From: the human T2T-CHM13v2.0 reference genome, Homo sapiens | Direction: 5' to 3' (one strand) | Assembly: GCF_009914755.1 (NCBI RefSeq) | Contig: NC_060932.1 | DNA: 64,000 nt | In this document: positions 18,989 through 47,900 of the stretch, piece by piece | How the letters are laid out: each line of letters starts with the position of its first letter | How positions within the stretch are numbered: the stretch's first letter is position 1 | The notes under the pieces: model-generated | The model's input: the letters and a program-made list of their open reading frames with translations, nothing else | What the model was told of the DNA's origin: nothing | Database searches by the model: none | Position numbers and translations under genes: made by a program

Positions 18989-19104
18989 CTTCATAGAAGA
19001 AACGCACTCCGTCGGGAAGGGGCTCGTATGGGGGTGCGAAGTACGGGCCCTTGTGCTCCAGCTGTCTCCACTTCACCCCGTCTTCGTGCTTCTCCTTCTC
19101 CCAC
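18989..19104 (-). CDS. TOP1MT: TOP1MT exon 2
   Basis: tttag|G TGG... encodes [38 protein letters not shown]; donor G|gtaag; 116 nt. Confidence 0.97.
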
Positions 19105-22299: not shown

Positions 22300-22790
22300 A
22301 GCAAGGGCGACGTCATGGGGGGGCCTGTACACCCCGGGCAGGAGGCGGGCCGGTCACACCGCGGCACGCATGCTCTCCTGGCCCGACTTTTGGGAAAACC
22401 GGAAGCAGGGCAAGGCCGTCCCACGAGGCCTGCCACTCCCCTTTCTGGACCTACCCAAGCCCGGTGCTCAGGGCCCTCGCCGCCTGCTCACTGGGACACC
22501 TTACCTGGCTCCACTGCCCTTCTGCGTCCTGCGCGAGCCCGGGACACCCCGGGAGGCCGGGCGGCGGGGGACCTCCCCGAGCAGCGTCAGAGCCGCCCGG
22601 AGCCGCAGCAGCCGCACCACGCGCATCTGCCAGCCTCCGGGAAAGGGCGACAAGCTGGGCCCCGCCCCAGCGGCCAGCCCCGCCCCGCCCCCAGCGGCCA
22701 GCCCCGCCCCCGAGCGCGGCCTCCGCCCCCAGCGGCGCTCATCCCAAGGCTGGGCGGTCTAAGCCTGCACGGGGCTGCGGCAGCAGGACC
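22300..22790 (-). promoter_or_regulatory. TOP1MT: TOP1MT proximal CpG-island promoter with tandem GC boxes
   Basis: CpG-rich; repeated CAGCGGCCAGCCCCGCCCC (GGGGCGGGG on the minus strand, Sp/KLF type) at about 22659-22735, just upstream of the ATG; no TATA seen. Confidence 0.8.
22505..22626 (-). CDS. TOP1MT: TOP1MT coding exon 1 (mitochondrial targeting peptide, aa 1-41)
   Basis: ATG at 22626 gives MRVVRLLRLRAALTLLGEVPRRPASRGVPGSRRTQKGSGA(R), an Arg/Leu-rich presequence. Donor AG|GTAAG, 122 nt, phase 2. Lies in a CpG island. Confidence 0.96.
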
Positions 22791-26949: not shown

Positions 26950-27330
26950 CACACTGCAAAAGAAACAGTGACTTTGACCTTAACAATATACTTAATTTCA
27001 ACTATTTCAACCAAAATACTGTCATTCAACATAATATGCTAATGCGATGGTATGCATCGTTCTTCTCAAAGCAGGCGTGCGTATCACACCCCCAGCACAT
27101 CTCCACTGGGAGAGCTGCGCAGCTCGTGGCTGCGTACAGGACACAGCAGGGGTGACGGCTACAACTGCAGTGTGGCCCACTTGTGGCCATGTGACCTTGG
27201 CCCGGTTACTTAACCTTTTTGTACCTCAGTTTCCTCATCTGAAAAATGGACATAGCAGTACCTACTTCATAGAGGACTGACCAAAAGCAATGCCAGACAC
27301 ACAGCAAACACTCACTTACTGCTGGCTGCT
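26950..27330. mobile_element. Degenerate MER DNA-transposon remnant followed by a MIR
   Basis: MIR core tgtgaccttggcccggttacttaacc...cctcagtttcctcatctgaaaaatgg at about 27189-27250; the MER3/MER33-like portion is weaker. Confidence 0.55.
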
Positions 27331-27434
27331 CCCAGTACCCTACAACCCACAGCTCAAAGCTGCCGATGCAAGAGGGCACTCTGGGGGGCACCCAGGCTCC
27401 CTGGCAACCTACAGTGGGCAGGCAAAGGCCAGCA

Positions 27435-27990
27435 CTGTAGCATTCCCACATTCCCAGCACTGGTCTACACAGCACTCCCCGCCTCCCCCACCAGGGACAG
27501 GGAGGGGAAGTGGGCCTGTGCTGGTCTAAACTGCATTCCCCTGCTCCCAGCGCTGATCTACACAGCATTCCACCCCTGCCAGCACTGGTCTACACAGCAT
27601 TCCCCCCGTCCCAGCACTGGTCTACACAGCATTCCCCCACTCCCAGCACTGGTCTACACAGCATTCCCCCCGTCCCAGCACTGGTCTACACAGCATTACC
27701 CCACTCCCAGCACTGGTCTACACAGCATTCCCCCGTCCCAGCACTGGTCTACACAGCATTCCCCCACTCCCAGCACTGGTCTACACAGCATTCCCCCGTC
27801 CCAGCACTGGTCTACACAGCATTCCCCCGTCCCAGCACTGGTCTACACAGCATTCCCCCACTCCCAGCACTGGTCTACACAGCATTCCCCCACTCCCAGC
27901 ACTGGTCTACACAGCATTCCCCCCCTCCCAGCACCGGTCTGCACAGCATTCCCCCACTCCCAGCACTGGTCTACACAGCATTCCCACCAC
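27435..27990. repeat. 31-33-bp VNTR, roughly 15 copies
   Basis: Unit cccagcactggtctacacagcattccccc(ac/g)t. Confidence 0.95.
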
Positions 27991-28036
27991 CCCGTCAGGA
28001 CATGGAGGGAGAGAAGGGGTGGGGTAGGGTACACAC

Positions 28037-29047
28037 CATTTCCACCTGCTGCCTTCGGCCTTCTCCCACCCTTTCTGGCTCTCCTCCTGTGGCTTAGCTG
28101 CCTCCTGGCCATCTTTCTTCTCTCCCTCTGGACACCCCAGCATCAACTGGCTCCCCCTCCTTCCACTTCTCTCTGCTTCTGGCTGGCTTCCGGCTGCCCT
28201 GAGCTTTCTCTTCTTGGGGCTTCTTCACCAGGCCCCCCACCTCCCAGTCACCCTTTGCCCCAGGGCAATGGCGAGGCCACGCCGCTGGCTGTGGTGCCCC
28301 GTCCAGCTCACTCCCACACTGCACTTCTCTGTCTTCCTCCAGGTCCTGAGCTTTTCATTTCTTTGGTTTTCGAGTCCCCTCTTCCCCAGCTTTGTCTGTC
28401 TCCCTCTTCTTTTCTTTTCTGGAAACCAAGGCCTCCTGTCCCACTTTTGTGCCACTACCTAATTTGTCACTTTCTTCTTTCTTGGTTTTTCCCACCCACA
28501 CTTCTTTTACATCCTCGTCCTCGTTCTGTGCTTGTCTCCTGGCCCGTAACTCTCCTTTCTGCTCAGTGTGGCCCTGGCTCGTCCTCCGTGCTGGGGTGGG
28601 CACCATGCCCTCACTGTGCACCTGCTCCTGGCCACGCTTCGCACCTCTTCTGTGGGAACTGCTCTGTCTATCCCACTGCCCAGAGCGCGCTCCTCCCCAG
28701 CTCCCACGGCGGCCCCTGCACTCTTCCGCTCCCCACAGCTGAGGGTCTCAGGCTTGCCCCTAGCGTCCCCGCCACCCTCTTCTCGTGCTGCCGCCCCAGT
28801 GCATCTCCCCACACGTTTGTCCTGAAGCCCTTTCTCCCCTTTCTCTTCGGATATTCTTTTTTTTTTCTCAGTTTGTGCCTCTCTTCCACACAGCCCTTGC
28901 CCCGGCCAGTGTCTGTGAGCTCACAGTCCAGGTCCTCTTCCAGAGCCCCCTTCCGGCTGGGCACCGCCTGCAGGGCCATGCCCTTCTATCTCTTCTCTTG
29001 GGTGTCAGGACCCCGGGCACATCCACCAAGGGCCATCTTCATCTTGT
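28037..29047 (-). pseudogene. Decayed coding exon resembling the charged N-terminal domain of nuclear TOP1 (relic upstream TOP1MT exon)
   Basis: Purine-rich on the minus strand. K/E-rich peptides lie in shifting frames, with 2 stops and about 3 inferred frameshifts. The last frame reads RSPKKRKL...KPQEESQKGWEKAEGSRWK-TG|gtgtgt, a phase-2 donor compatible with exon 2. Acceptor ttcctgcag|AC at 29047. Confidence 0.6.
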
Positions 29048-29168
29048 CTGCAGGAACCTCCGTGTGGCCTTGGGACCTTGCCCAGAACAGAGAGCACACA
29101 CCATGAGAGGGGCCACAGGGCCACAAACATACCCACCCGGAGACCCCAGAGGAGGAGGGAAGGTTCAC

Positions 29169-29264
29169 CTTCCCCACCCCAGCAATGGCTGCCCTCCATG
29201 GGCCTAACAGATGCTTTTAACTCAGCTTTGGAAAATGGCCTCTTGATCTCAGCCCTTGTGGCCT
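29169..29264 (-). other. Candidate 96-nt upstream TOP1MT exon (phase 1-1)
   Basis: ctcctgacag|AG...GAAG|gtgaac; open frame EATRAEIKRPFSKAELKASVRPMEGSHCWGGE, in frame with the 29047 acceptor. Confidence 0.5.
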
Positions 29265-29449: not shown

Positions 29450-30776
<1,327 letters not shown>

Positions 30777-33700
30777 TAAGCATTCATCAGGCATGAGTGC
30801 CTGGGAAGTTGCTTATCAGAATCATGTTCACACATTCATTTCCTATTTAAGATGCCGACTTGGCCTTTTTTCTTGGGTGGCTTTTCATGGTGATTAGTCT
30901 TCACTGGCGTGGTGATCTGTGCAAATCTAGAATTCAAATGTATACATAAACATGCAGCTCTGCGGCTCATTTAGGGTTGCCATTCTAACAACAGAGAGTC
31001 AGAACAACCTCATGGAAGCCTCCCAAGCTCTTCATGACCCTTTTCTCATTTTTCAAAAGTACACCTGGCAAAGCTGCTGGTGACCCACGTGCTGGGCATC
31101 AAGGAACCTCTGACTCTGAGCACAGCACCAGCTGGCGGTGGGAAGTCCCGCCCGAGGCCAGAAGCTGCGAACACATCTCAGGCCCCTCCCGGCCTCGGGA
31201 AGAGTGGGCAGGCAGTAAAAGGCAGCTCCCAGGTCCCCTCTGGGACCATCTCTGTCCCCACCAACACCACGGCAGTTCAGAGATCATCAATTTGGAAAAA
31301 CAGTCTTTCCAAAGTAACTTTTGAAGAAGAAGTGTGAGAAAATATATTCAGAAACAAAACCCACATTGAACAGAGAGAGGAACAGACACTTCGCTTAAGT
31401 GGGAATGGCACGGGGCCCACCTCGGGCTGCACGCTGGGTCAGAGGCGCCATCCCTGGGAACCCCGAGGAGGTTATGGGGGCACCAGGCACCCCGGTCTGA
31501 ACGCTCCCACTCATCGGCTGACTGGCCACCCTCACCCACACCTCACACTATGGCTGCTCTCACTCCACCATCTGACCATCACAACACACGCCCACATCCA
31601 TGCAGACTGGAGACACAGTGAAACACGCGTCTTGCAAGGAAAAACCTGTGAGATTTCTGAAAATCATGTTAGAGCCCTACTGAGGCAGAGGCCTGGGCCA
31701 GCCGAGAAAGGTGAGAGGAGGCCCTGTTGTAACACAGCTGGAAAGCAGGATTCATAGATGGATTTCATGTGGAATCTAGGCCCTCAAGGATGGGGCCCTC
31801 AAAGATGACACCAAGGTCTGTGCTTGAGAAGACAGAAGGAGCCGCTTCACCGAAACGAGAGGACTAGGGAGGGAAGGGCAGCAGACACCCACGGTCCTCT
31901 CAGGATGTGCTGACTGCAGAGGCCTAGAGTCCCACAGGGAAGCCGTGGGAGGCCCCCTCTGCCCCAGCCCAGCTCAGCCCTCCTGCTTGAGGAAGAAGGA
32001 GTGGCGGGACACCAGAGGGACAGGCTAGGAAGCACTCAGTAGCAGTGGCAGGAGCTCAGGAGGCTTTGGGCTGGCCCTGAGACACCACCACCCACTGGCC
32101 AGCAGCAGCTGGTCCTCCAGGTCTCCGTGACTCCCCCAGCCCCATGCCCACCCAGGATACAAAGGCAAGCCTCCCCACTCCCCAGCCACTCCCTTACTCA
32201 GTGAGGACCCAGGGCTGCTCACTGTGCCACCCGCCCGCCGCGCAGCACCATTCCCCAGCTACAGGGACAGCTGATGGTCACACAGACCCCACAGCGATCT
32301 CTGTCACTCCCAGACGCCGCCTCCCCAGTAACCCCTGTTGTGGGGGTGTAGACGGAGAGGCGCAGACACTGTCCTGTCAACAAGCCAGGCTCCATGTTGT
32401 CCGTAAGTCCAGGGCCCAGCACCTAAGGGTGATTAACTGGCAAGGACACCAAACAGCGGAGGAGGAGGGACCTCAGCTGAGCGAGATGAGCGACAGTGAA
32501 CAAGGCCAGGCAGGAGACAGAATGGATGGGCGTCAAGGGAGGAGCCACCCAGCACCTGGAGAGCAGCTGTGGTCACAGGCACGAATTCATCACAGCCACA
32601 GTCATCAGCACGGGCTGCAGTCTGGGGTAGAAAAATCAGAAGGAAGGAAACGTTAAAGTTTTAAGCAATAAGAGACCCAGGGGCCGTGTTAAAAGGTAAC
32701 TCATTCTCTACCTCATCCCAACTCAATGACACAATCCTGGCTCCACCTGGGCCAGCACAGGGGCTTGTAAAAGAGTATGCATGGGAGACTCCCCATAGAC
32801 AGGTCCCAGTCCCCGGACACAGACACGTACCACACTGCAGGCACCAGCCAGTCCTTCCCGAGGAGCTTACCCTCACTGGGCAGAGCCACGCACTGAGGGG
32901 CAGAGCCCACAAGCCCACTGGCAGCCGAGGTCACCCCCATGCCTGACCTGGCAGAGCCCTGCAGGAGGCAGGTCCACAGGGCATCCCTGGTGGCTGAAAG
33001 GTCTGAACCAGCACTGGGCACAGGAGCCCAGCAATGCCAGCCCGAGGCGTCTGCTGGTCTCCGGAGGACACAGTTGCAAACTCGACACAGACACAGAGAA
33101 GCAGGCTGGCCCCTCCAGCTCCTGCTGCCACGCGCGGCTGGGAGGTGTCACTCACACCCCACGTGGAACAGGGCCTCTCGGGCTATACTCCCACACCTCT
33201 GGCTGGCACTTCAGCAGAGAGTTTTTCACTGTTTTAAATTAAAATACAGATAAGGCTTGCATTAATTTAGTAGAAAAGTTTAGCGCCAACTCAGGGCTTT
33301 CATAAATTATAGAAGAATACATTACATAGTACCAGAACACAGAGAAGAGATAAAGTAATTCACACTTAAACTATACTGATGAAGTCAGTCATCAGTAAAA
33401 TGGCAAAATCCAAATCATCGACACTTTTTCTAAATTGAAGTCCCACAAAGCATTTACTATTGCATTGCTTTTCAAACAAACCGTTATCTAACAACCCACT
33501 GTTAATGGGGTAGACTGTGGAGGGTCTGATTCTGCCCTATCAGCACATCCGCAGGAAACACCTGCAGAAATCATCACCAGGGAGATGCCGGGGGCAGGGG
33601 TGATGGTCGAGTGTGTGTGGACATGTCTGTATTCTGAGTGTGGCAGTGGCTTTCCAGAGGGACACTTCTGCCACAACTCATCCAATGGTCACTGTCAACG

Positions 33701-43597: not shown

Positions 43598-43668
43598 CCA
43601 ACAGTAAGATTGTCCCGCCCTGGATTTTCTTTTGAAACGGAGAATTTATTTTCTTCCCTCAAGCACTG
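43598..43668 (-). other. Candidate non-coding upstream TOP1MT exon
   Basis: Pyrimidine tract ccctgttctcttgtgacttatag| and donor TGG|gtaagg in non-repeat sequence, on the TOP1MT strand, downstream of the distal CpG island. Confidence 0.45.
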
Positions 43669-45735: not shown

Positions 45736-46623
45736 TAAATAAATAAAAATGAAACATTCACAGTAAATAAAAGGCTGGAACCTGGTCTTCGCCCTGTCTT
45801 CCCTGATTTTTATGCTTTGGCTTCTTCACTTTGAGCTTCTTTGCATTTTCCAGCCTTATCTGCCCAGTACTCTCTCTCTTCCTTTAATCAAAGAAATACG
45901 CTCCTGTAACTCCAAAGAAGAAACGGCAACACCAGTGCCAAAATGATGTTTTTGACAGGAAGAAACATAAACTTCACAGGAAAGCAGTGACATCACGCCC
46001 CTCCCATTCCTCCCCTGTTCTGATCCTGGGCTGTGGTTCAGACAGGACCTACAGCCCAGACAGCTCCTTCCACCCCATTCTCTACCATTGTAGTGATGAG
46101 GTTAGACCCGAATGTTACAAGAGCTGGGCAAGCAGGTGAAGCACCCCCAGCAACAAAATCCATCATCATAAACATGCAAAGGCCACTGCTTCCCAAAAGT
46201 ATTTGCTACCTCTTGAGAGCAACTTTATCATCCACTGGCAACTGCTTCAAATTGGGCCCCGACTGTCTCCCATCACCTATCTGCAACTGAGTGTCCCCAC
46301 CTGCAAGAAAACACACACGTCTCCAGGGCCCTGGGGTGAGCAGCAGGACCGTTCCACAGAGGTGAGCCTGGACCCAGGCAGCAGGGACACTGCTGCACCT
46401 GCGGCTGGAGTGACACCGAAAACACAGCAGCAGCTGAGAGGGCAGGAGAGGCAACCGGCCACGAGCCTCTGTTGGCTCCAACCACCAAAGGATGGTGCTT
46501 ATTCCTGACCCCATTACTACGCAACCAGGCTCACTAGAAAGTTTCCATTAGCCGGTCTGGAGCATATTCCTGGGTGTGATATGCCATCATGTTCATGTTT
46601 TTTAAATCACTATTAAGTAAAGC

Positions 46624-47329: not shown

Positions 47330-47900
47330 GACACGTTGGTGGCGTCGTGCGCGGAGGGGGAGGTACACGGAGGAGTCGCGGAGAGGCGAGGGATGTGGGA
47401 GGTCGTCACCAACAGCGCGACCTGGGTCACCCACAGGAAGAGGGCCACTGAGGGCCCCGCCTGACCCCTCCCTCCTGGTGGCCCTGCGCCCTCAGGCCGA
47501 GTCCCACCTCCTCTGCAGCTCTTCCAGGACCCACGCGGTCCCACCGCACCACGGCTCCCCCGGACCCCGCTTCCCCGAGGCCTGCGCGGAGACGCCGGGA
47601 AGGCCCGAGCCCGCGCATGCGCAGCCGCCGCCACGTGCCTGCCTTGACGCCGCCGGTGCTGCCGGGAAGGGGGCGGGCTGCGCAGGCGCGGGAGAGGCCC
47701 ACGCGGTGGCCACGCGGGGCGTCCGGTGGCTGCGCTCGGTTGGGCCCCTGGGCTCGCGCGCTCCGTGGGCCGCGGTGCTGACGGGCACCCAGGAGGTGGG
47801 GTGGGAGGCGGCCGGCCGGGGTGGAGGGGCGTTCCTGGGCCGACGTGCTGTTGGCTTCCGCGACGTGGTGGAGTCTCGCCAGTCCCTGCAGCGCTTCTGC
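47330..47900 (-). promoter_or_regulatory. Distal CpG island, probable alternative TOP1MT promoter; NRF1 site and E-box
   Basis: CpG-dense with no convincing CDS; GCGCATGCGCA at 47613-47623; CACGTG at 47632-47637; candidate donor GAG|gtggga at 47508. I recall that TOP1MT has long transcripts starting about 25 kb upstream of exon 1. Confidence 0.65.

What the first reader, a model, noticed from the sequence alone, without database searches (positions are those of the whole stretch)
28228..29264. About 1.1 kb of pseudogenised K/E-rich coding sequence in two exons, with readable lesions
Seen: a 96-nt exon (29264-29169) splices in frame across a 121-nt GT-AG intron to an acceptor at 29047. The peptide reads DKMKMALGGCARGPDTQEKR* (TAG 28988-28986) then KGMALQAVPSRKGALEEDLDCELTD...EERHKLRKKK. 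After a shift in the T10 run near 28860 it reads RISEEKGEKGLQDKR...AVPTEEVR. After a second shift it reads QAQNEDEDVKEVWVGKTKKEESDK...RKEKKRETDKAGEEGTRKPKK* (TGA 28357-28355) then KAQDLEEDREV. A third shift near 28228 leads into the NLS/WKW frame. RKEKKRETDKAGEEGTRKPKK resembles TOP1 KKEKKRKLEEEEDGKLKKPKNK. Inference: a long charged N-terminal extension of about 370 aa was lost in the lineage leading to humans, i.e. a unitary pseudo-isoform inside a living gene. Frameshift positions are my best reading, and low-complexity similarity alone is weak evidence. Parts may already be annotated as minor TOP1MT exons.
Basis: partly seen in the sequence, partly recalled or inferred. Interest (0 to 1): 0.75.

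Follow-up and report, generated by a model that had tools for sequence, protein, structure and literature searches.

The report
Lost nuclear-type isoform of TOP1MT
The human gene for the mitochondrial DNA-untwisting enzyme TOP1MT carries five broken upstream exons matching a long, highly charged front end found intact in predicted proteins of other mammals, birds and a reptile, so a second, likely nuclear form of the enzyme was probably lost in our primate ancestors.

Summary
Nine of 120 listed TOP1MT database proteins (colugo, donkey, rhino, pig, tamandua, wallaby, glider, echidna; 934-1141 aa) have a charged 377-581-aa N-terminus ending W[KR]W|W. Three unnamed sauropsid-type proteins have it too.

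The human relic is one 1040-nt exon (29076-28037), not two. It scores 389 against colugo (shuffles 87±11). Four further exons lie upstream: 46300-46210 (ATG 46273), 45881-45782, 43668-43598 and 30926-30860. Their splice phases chain in frame into exon 2, replacing the mitochondrial-targeting exon, for about 447 aa.

Human lesions: five frameshifts and two stops; the first stop is at codon 9.

The last shift lies near 28120, so the PKKRKL 'NLS' is out of frame. The TOP1 resemblance is only compositional.

No long form appears in 42 ape/Old World monkey rows or 19 muroid rows. That may explain why TOP1MT is described as purely mitochondrial. Nuclear localisation, expression and the date of loss are inferred, not shown.

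The parts
46210..46300 (-). Relic exon A. Holds the start ATG at 46273 and has 64 coding nt to a phase-2 donor, one short of the orthologous 22 codons. The frameshift lies in the first codons and gives a stop at codon 9.
   Evidence: Top ungapped hit (of 64000-19200, minus strand) for the first 21-22 aa of colugo, donkey, rhino and tamandua, scores 33-41 vs next best 18-21. Not top for pig or wallaby. AG/GT and first stop.
45782..45881 (-). Relic exon B, 100 nt, phase 2 to 0, frame open, basic (KKLKVKKPK), weak donor CAG|GTTCCA
   Evidence: tblastn of colugo and donkey 56-62% identity; boundaries; donor 5/9 consensus
43598..43668 (-). Relic exon C, 71 nt, phase 0 to 2, frame open. Spliced straight to exon 2 in monkey models.
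   Evidence: Cercocebus P0046 and unnamed P0032, P0035, P0037, P0040
30860..30926 (-). Relic exon D, 67 nt, phase 2 to 0, frame open. An ATG at 30888 in another frame gives a short basic start that macaque and orangutan models use.
   Evidence: tblastn 60-76% identity to colugo, donkey, rhino and pig
28037..29076 (-). Relic exon E (the finding), 1040 nt, phase 0 to 2, purine-rich and K/E-coding. Ends AAA TG|GT so that it would join exon 2 as KW|W.
   Evidence: (139 of 319 aligned residues identical to colugo); last 11 nt match the end of TOP1 exon 8 at 10 positions
29055..29056 (-).
   Evidence: colugo, donkey and rhino alignments; from the true acceptor the frame stops at 29007-29005
28986..28988 (-). 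Premature TAG
   Evidence: in frame in the colugo and rhino alignments
28849..28942 (-). Frameshift 2, position uncertain; best candidate is the A10 run 28866-28857
   Evidence: rhino 28852, tamandua 28929 and 28849, pig 28894, colugo 28942
28658..28703 (-). Frameshift 3
   Evidence: 28670 in 4 of 5 eutherians, colugo 28658, wallaby 28703
28355..28357 (-). Premature TGA
   Evidence: in frame in 7 of 8 alignments
28105..28162 (-). Frameshift 4, likely in the GA-rich run near 28120 (not at 28228)
22505..22645 (-). Living first exon with the mitochondrial targeting sequence; also ends in phase 2, so it is an alternative to exons A-E
   Evidence: Hub annotation; phases
18989..19104 (-). TOP1MT exon 2, phase-2 acceptor shared by both N-termini; homologue of TOP1 exon 9
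47508..47610 (-). Annotated upstream non-coding first exon in GC-rich sequence, 1.2 kb above exon A; inferred ancestral promoter of the long isoform
   Evidence: Hub annotation; sequence; promoter role is inference
29169..29264 (-).

Best explanation
Five decayed upstream exons of human TOP1MT match the N-terminus of a long predicted isoform in other amniotes, which likely acted as a nuclear topoisomerase IB and was probably lost in the primate line before apes and Old World monkeys split. Mechanism: an upstream promoter (inferred) gives an mRNA that splices exons A-E to exon 2 and skips the mitochondrial-targeting exon. Phases and frame compatibility are shown; splicing is taken from other species' gene models. 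The protein swaps the short Arg-rich presequence for about 380-580 charged residues with several K[KR]x[KR] motifs (shown) and restores the W-x-W-W cluster that the mitochondrial form lacks (shown). It would therefore be predicted to enter the nucleus and clamp DNA more like TOP1 (inferred), possibly in a restricted tissue such as the germ line (speculative). In humans a frameshift in exon A stops translation at codon 9, and exon E has four more shifts and two stops (shown). The remaining upstream transcripts skip the coding relics or use only small ones.
For: Long models in 9 of 120 listed hits from 8 mammal species across eutherians, marsupials and a monotreme. Three of the 149 new representatives are long and TOP1MT-type: P0127 sits with named birds (support 100), P0133 in the sauropsid group (91), and P0263 was not put in the tree. 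Colinear tblastn hits to four separate human exons, plus exon A. Phases 2,0,2,0,2 join in frame; total 1342 nt, one short of frame. Shuffle controls. Under neutral drift an exon of E's size would stay open with probability about 1e-6 after 0.1 substitutions per site (assumed indel rate). N-termini are 36-52% charged, with 3-18 NLS-type motifs and 3-7 acidic residues in the first 30, vs 0-1 for five mitochondrial presequences. Dalla Rosa 2009 (PMC2770673, Discussion) states that two of the three key tryptophans 203/205/206 are missing in Top1mt; all long forms have them. 0 of 42 named ape/Old World monkey rows are long. Seven lesions give about 0.04 substitutions per site since loss, 95% interval 0.016-0.084.
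Against: All long forms are predicted models; I saw no RNA-seq reads, peptides or localisation data. The N-termini evolve very fast: 38-49% identity between eutherian orders vs 82-88% for the core, so constraint on sequence is weak. Echidna does not match the human relic above local shuffles. Nuclear-targeted human Top1mt binds mitotic chromosomes poorly (PMC2770673, abstract and Discussion), so the core may be ill-suited to the nucleus. Absence in primates and rodents rests on the best 120 of 1853 clustered hits. No New World monkey row was listed, and 4 tarsier/strepsirrhine rows were short but not necessarily those species' longest models. The date uses a recalled indel-to-substitution ratio and recalled branch lengths.
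Confidence: 0.75

Rival explanations
1. The long isoform is real and was lost, but it is not a nuclear enzyme. It is a cytoplasmic, nucleolar-sequestered or tissue-specific storage or regulatory form whose tail matters only for charge and length.
For: Very low sequence constraint. Tamandua matches a different human frame than colugo near 29000-28930, hinting at compensated frameshifts in intact orthologues. The human Top1mt core works poorly on chromosomes.
Against: Multiple NLS-type motifs, no presequence character, and a W[KR]W|W junction kept from birds to colugo.
Confidence: 0.13
2. The long models are annotation artefacts from stop-poor purine-rich intronic DNA, and the human stretch is simply the orthologous intron.
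For: Models are predictions; purine-rich DNA has strong frame biases (a 616-codon open frame lies on the opposite strand); identity between orders is near what neutral drift could give.
Against: Five separate exons with compatible phases, conserved start and W[KR]W|W end, small exons 56-76% identical. Open frames in 8 mammal species and 3 sauropsid-type proteins. The exon C end motif recurs in P0127, P0133 and P0263.
Confidence: 0.05
3. Part of the relic still works in humans. Small exons C or D spliced directly to exon 2 give a presequence-less TOP1MT with a short basic start, so the isoform was trimmed rather than lost.
For: B, C and D keep open frames and GT-AG sites. Macaque, mangabey and orangutan models splice C or D onward. 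The human exon D ATG at 30888 reads in phase with exon 2.
Against: None of A-E is in the human RefSeq exon list given by the hub. Donors of B and D match only 5 of 9 consensus positions. Human B and C have no in-frame Met. B+C differ at 9 of 53 residues from the monkey-like P0035, near neutral expectation (expectation recalled).
Confidence: 0.07

Closest known systems
Predicted long TOP1MT isoforms in NCBI/UniProt (colugo X2 1003 aa, donkey X3 1004 aa, tamandua X2 1062 aa, wallaby X1 1134 aa, echidna 1081 aa)
   Same: Orthologous, colinear N-terminus, same start and same W[KR]W|W junction to exon 2
   Different: The human copy has five frameshifts and two stops. The models carry only the name 'mitochondrial', and no searched paper describes them.
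Nuclear TOP1 N-terminal domain (exons 1-8, residues 1-205)
   Same: Charged low-complexity tail with NLS-type motifs; last exon phase 0 to 2 ending TG|GT with KW|W; intron phases 2,0,2,(2),0,2 match A-E if one symmetric exon is dropped, and marsupials and echidna have a roughly 49-aa insert at that place
   Different: Twice as long or more, mostly from one expanded exon (1040 vs 107 nt). No sequence similarity above local shuffles in 10 of 11 long N-termini. Exon D's best offset is exactly the start of TOP1 exon 7, but the score is matched by 99 of 300 shuffles, and exon C does not match exon 5.
Canonical TOP1MT (601 aa, presequence exon 1; Moreira 2023 PMC10081982)
   Same: Same 13 terminal exons and core
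   Different: Alternative 5' exon set; presequence absent; tryptophans equivalent to TOP1 W203 and W205 present
Novel upstream Top1mt promoters in mouse podocytes and sperm (Ouro-Seq, bioRxiv 10.1101/2025.01.17.633678, passages only)
   Same: Upstream 5' exons replace the original first exon in particular cell types
   Different: The passages seen give no long charged N-terminus, orthology or loss; Supplementary Note 6 was not seen; whether these exons are homologous to A-E is untested
Unitary pseudogenes and lineage-specific exon losses (e.g. hominoid urate oxidase; search listing only)
   Same: Orthologous coding sequence disabled in one lineage without a duplicate
   Different: Here only one isoform's exons died, inside a gene that remains active

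Membership tests
Pseudogenised isoform (unitary loss of exons) | Orthologous intact coding sequence in outgroups | tested here: met
   8 mammal species; 6 of 8 match the relic with 0 of 200 local shuffles reaching the score
Pseudogenised isoform (unitary loss of exons) | Disabling lesions in the focal genome | tested here: met
   Five frameshifts, two stops, first stop at codon 9
Pseudogenised isoform (unitary loss of exons) | No other copy in the same genome | tested here: met
   One match only for 28040-29264 in the own genome (the tool skips simple and very common words)
Pseudogenised isoform (unitary loss of exons) | Lesions fixed in the species and shared with relatives, dating the loss | not testable with these tools
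   One human assembly and no primate genomes held; only indirect protein evidence
Pseudogenised isoform (unitary loss of exons) | Outgroup isoform is expressed and under purifying selection | tested here: inconclusive
   Open frames are improbable under drift, but identity is low and there are no orthologous DNA or RNA data
TOP1MT orthologue group (for the long proteins) | Core clusters with TOP1MT, not TOP1 | tested here: met
   Quick IQ-TREE, 33 rows: all long forms included fall in the TOP1MT clade (SH-aLRT 99), human TOP1 outside; the careful search did not finish
Nuclear type IB topoisomerase (works like TOP1) | W203-x-W205-W206 cluster before the core | tested here: met
   W[KR]WW in 9 named and 3 unnamed long proteins and at the human relic junction
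Nuclear type IB topoisomerase (works like TOP1) | Charged N-terminal domain with NLS-type motifs and no mitochondrial presequence | tested here: met
   Composition and motif counts only; such motifs are common in K-rich sequence
Nuclear type IB topoisomerase (works like TOP1) | Nuclear localisation and activity on chromatin | not testable with these tools
   Needs imaging and assays; the human core binds chromosomes poorly
Direct descendant of TOP1 exons 3-8 | Exon-by-exon homology to TOP1's N-terminal exons | tested here: inconclusive
   Phase pattern and terminal junction agree; sequence tests not significant

The most novel reading that the evidence does not exclude
TOP1MT was ancestrally a dual-targeted gene. 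It kept the nuclear N-terminal exon array from the TOP1 duplication and added the mitochondrial exon later. Most amniotes therefore still have a second nuclear topoisomerase IB, possibly germ-line enriched, which apes/Old World monkeys and muroid rodents lost independently. The textbook 'mitochondria-only' view would then be an artefact of studying human and mouse.
Probability: 0.4. Interest if true: 0.85.

Novelty: new variant of a known kind. Interest (0 to 1): 0.7.

Why it matters
Papers read here say TOP1MT localises exclusively to mitochondria and lacks TOP1's long N-terminus (PMC10081982, PMC6514783). A long, TOP1-like isoform intact in horse, pig, colugo, marsupials, echidna and birds, but dead in humans, would change that account and the story of how the two paralogues divided their work. 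It would predict a second nuclear camptothecin target in some animals, since W205 governs camptothecin response on negative supercoils (PMC2094083, abstract). It also gives a clean, datable case of isoform-level gene loss in primates. It can be tested at once with public genome alignments and RNA-seq.

Tried and rejected
Direct search with the 217-residue relic frame found nothing among 1671 candidates. A search with the colugo N-terminus returned only 3 proteins among 7990 scored and missed known long forms, so it says nothing about absence in primates. PDB and Pfam gave no match for the relic frames, and Pfam finds no domain in the long N-termini. The ESM Atlas returned only a generic topoisomerase cluster at 0.85. 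AlphaFold2 on the 8-row alignment gave mean pLDDT 40 with a poor core too, so it is no evidence of disorder. Rejected: the 96-nt exon, the 29047 acceptor (exon D joined to it stops after two codons), the shift at 28228 and the in-frame PKKRKL NLS, and the quoted TOP1 resemblance. Exon C versus TOP1 exon 5 was not supported. Zhang 2004 (NAR) and Zhang 2007 (Biochimie, human TOP1mt splice variants) are not held and could bear on novelty. Earlier scan findings were not available. T10 polymorphism, PhyloCSF and primate genome alignments could not be run.

Full report
Observation. The stretch is purine-rich on the minus strand and single-copy in the assembly. It ends at a donor, TG|GTGTGT at 28037, in phase 2. 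That is the phase of the TOP1MT exon 2 acceptor and of the living presequence exon. TOP1 exon 8 on chr20 ends the same way, and the last 11 nt agree at 10 positions.

Outgroups. A search with TOP1MT exon 5 found 1853 proteins and listed the best 120. Nine rows from eight species are 934-1141 aa and have a long charged N-terminus ending W[KR]W|W: colugo, donkey, black rhino, pig, tamandua, tammar wallaby (two), sugar glider and echidna. A profile search of the 50% representatives listed 150 proteins. Of the 149 new ones, three are long and TOP1MT-type. P0127 groups with three named birds (support 100) and P0133 with the sauropsid group (91) in a quick tree of 33 rows, where all long forms fall in the TOP1MT clade (99) and human TOP1 falls outside. 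The careful search did not finish, and P0263 was not included. All three share a motif with the end of marsupial and echidna exon C. The long form is therefore at least amniote-wide as a predicted protein.

The human relic. tblastn of the long proteins hits 29082-27988 (E 1e-22 to 2e-9 for five eutherians) and three further places upstream: 45883-45782, 43668-43600 and 30931-30857. An ungapped scan adds the start exon at 46274 for four of six queries. AG/GT boundaries give exons A 46300-46210, B 45881-45782, C 43668-43598, D 30926-30860 and E 29076-28037, with phases 2,0,2,0,2 and 1342 nt from ATG to the last donor. None is in the RefSeq exon list supplied by the hub. Frameshift-aware alignment of exon E gives 139 of 319 identities to colugo. 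Scores exceed all 200 local shuffles for six of eight orthologues; glider is borderline and echidna is not significant. The lesions are one frameshift in exon A (stop at codon 9), four in exon E (near 29055, 28942-28849, 28703-28658, 28162-28105) and two stops. The four shifts in E sum to zero, consistent with its 1040-nt length. B, C and D remain open.

The last shift is about 100 nt further on than stated, so PKKRKL is read in the wrong frame; rhino and pig do not discriminate between the frames. TOP1's own N-terminus scores weakly against the relic (90 vs 66±9; 1 of 200 shuffles).

How it likely works. Shown: alternative 5' exon sets converge on exon 2. The long set encodes 36-52% charged residues, 3-18 K[KR]x[KR] motifs and an acidic start unlike five presequences. 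It supplies the two tryptophans that Dalla Rosa 2009 reports as missing from Top1mt and important for the DNA clamp (PMC2770673, passages and first part of the Discussion). W205 also governs camptothecin response (PMC2094083, abstract). Inferred: transcription from the GC-rich upstream start near 47610, nuclear import and TOP1-like DNA binding. Against: the same paper finds nuclear-targeted human Top1mt binds chromosomes poorly, and the tails are only 38-49% identical between eutherian orders. An open 1-kb frame in so many lineages is still very unlikely under drift (with an assumed indel rate). A germ-line role is speculation, prompted by fast evolution and by upstream Top1mt promoters in mouse sperm and podocytes (Ouro-Seq preprint, passages; supplement not seen).

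When it was lost. None of 42 named ape and Old World monkey rows is long (my count). Several macaque, mangabey and orangutan models splice exon C or D onward and skip E. Two unnamed monkey-like proteins (P0035, P0040) imply a 2-nt offset at the start of exon B relative to human; this is inferred from protein only. Seven lesions correspond to about 0.04 substitutions per site (0.016-0.084). By recalled branch lengths that fits the catarrhine or simian ancestor. None of 19 muroid rows is long either, which suggests a separate loss. These absences come from a truncated, clustered list, and the follow-up search was crowded out.

Relation to TOP1. TOP1 exons 3-8 have phases 2,0,2,2,0,2. A-E match this if one symmetric exon is dropped, and marsupials and echidna carry a roughly 49-residue insert between C and D (no DNA seen). 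Exon D's best offset on TOP1 1-204 is exactly the start of exon 7, but I noticed this before testing and the score is not significant. Inheritance from the duplication is plausible but unproven.

Literature. Six searches with TOP1MT among the terms listed no paper describing a long or nuclear isoform or its loss; mostly returned papers without the term. Moreira 2023 (parts 1-3 of 5 and passages) treats TOP1MT as exclusively mitochondrial with a short N-terminus and never uses the word isoform. The 2019 review says the same (passages), as does a 2025 preprint (one passage). Zhang 2004 and 2007 were not held.

Verdict. This is a real feature: a pseudogenised isoform inside a living gene, larger and older than first read. 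The class is known, but this instance appears undescribed and challenges a standard statement about TOP1MT. Interest 0.7; confidence in the relic-of-long-isoform core about 0.9, and in the full account with nuclear role and date 0.75.

Noticed in passing
window 27521-27985: 32-bp GC-rich tandem repeat, 14.6 copies, starting about 50 nt after the exon E donor.
   Followed up: no
window 29525-30421: 34-bp tandem array, 27 copies, resembling an amplified Alu end (label recalled), between exons D and E; it could have weakened D-E splicing.
   Followed up: no
window 27256-29106 (+): 616-codon stop-free frame antisense to exon E and the 32-bp repeat; probably a by-product of purine-rich minus-strand sequence.
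   Followed up: no
window 30888-30860 (-): ATG in exon D in a second frame gives a short basic start in phase with exon 2; macaque models P0028-P0030, P0062, P0065 and orangutan P0010 use it.
   Followed up: partly
window 29000-28930 (-) vs P0033: Tamandua aligns to a different human frame than colugo, rhino and pig here, hinting at compensated frameshifts among intact orthologues.
   Followed up: no
rows P0057, P0058, P0063, P0074: The four whale TOP1MT models listed have neither the long N-terminus nor a typical presequence start; either annotation gaps or further 5' exon loss.
   Followed up: no
P0108, P0112, P0117, P0120 (alignment A1 columns 93-149): Marsupials and echidna carry a roughly 49-57-residue insert between exons C and D that eutherians lack, possibly an extra symmetric exon.
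   Followed up: partly
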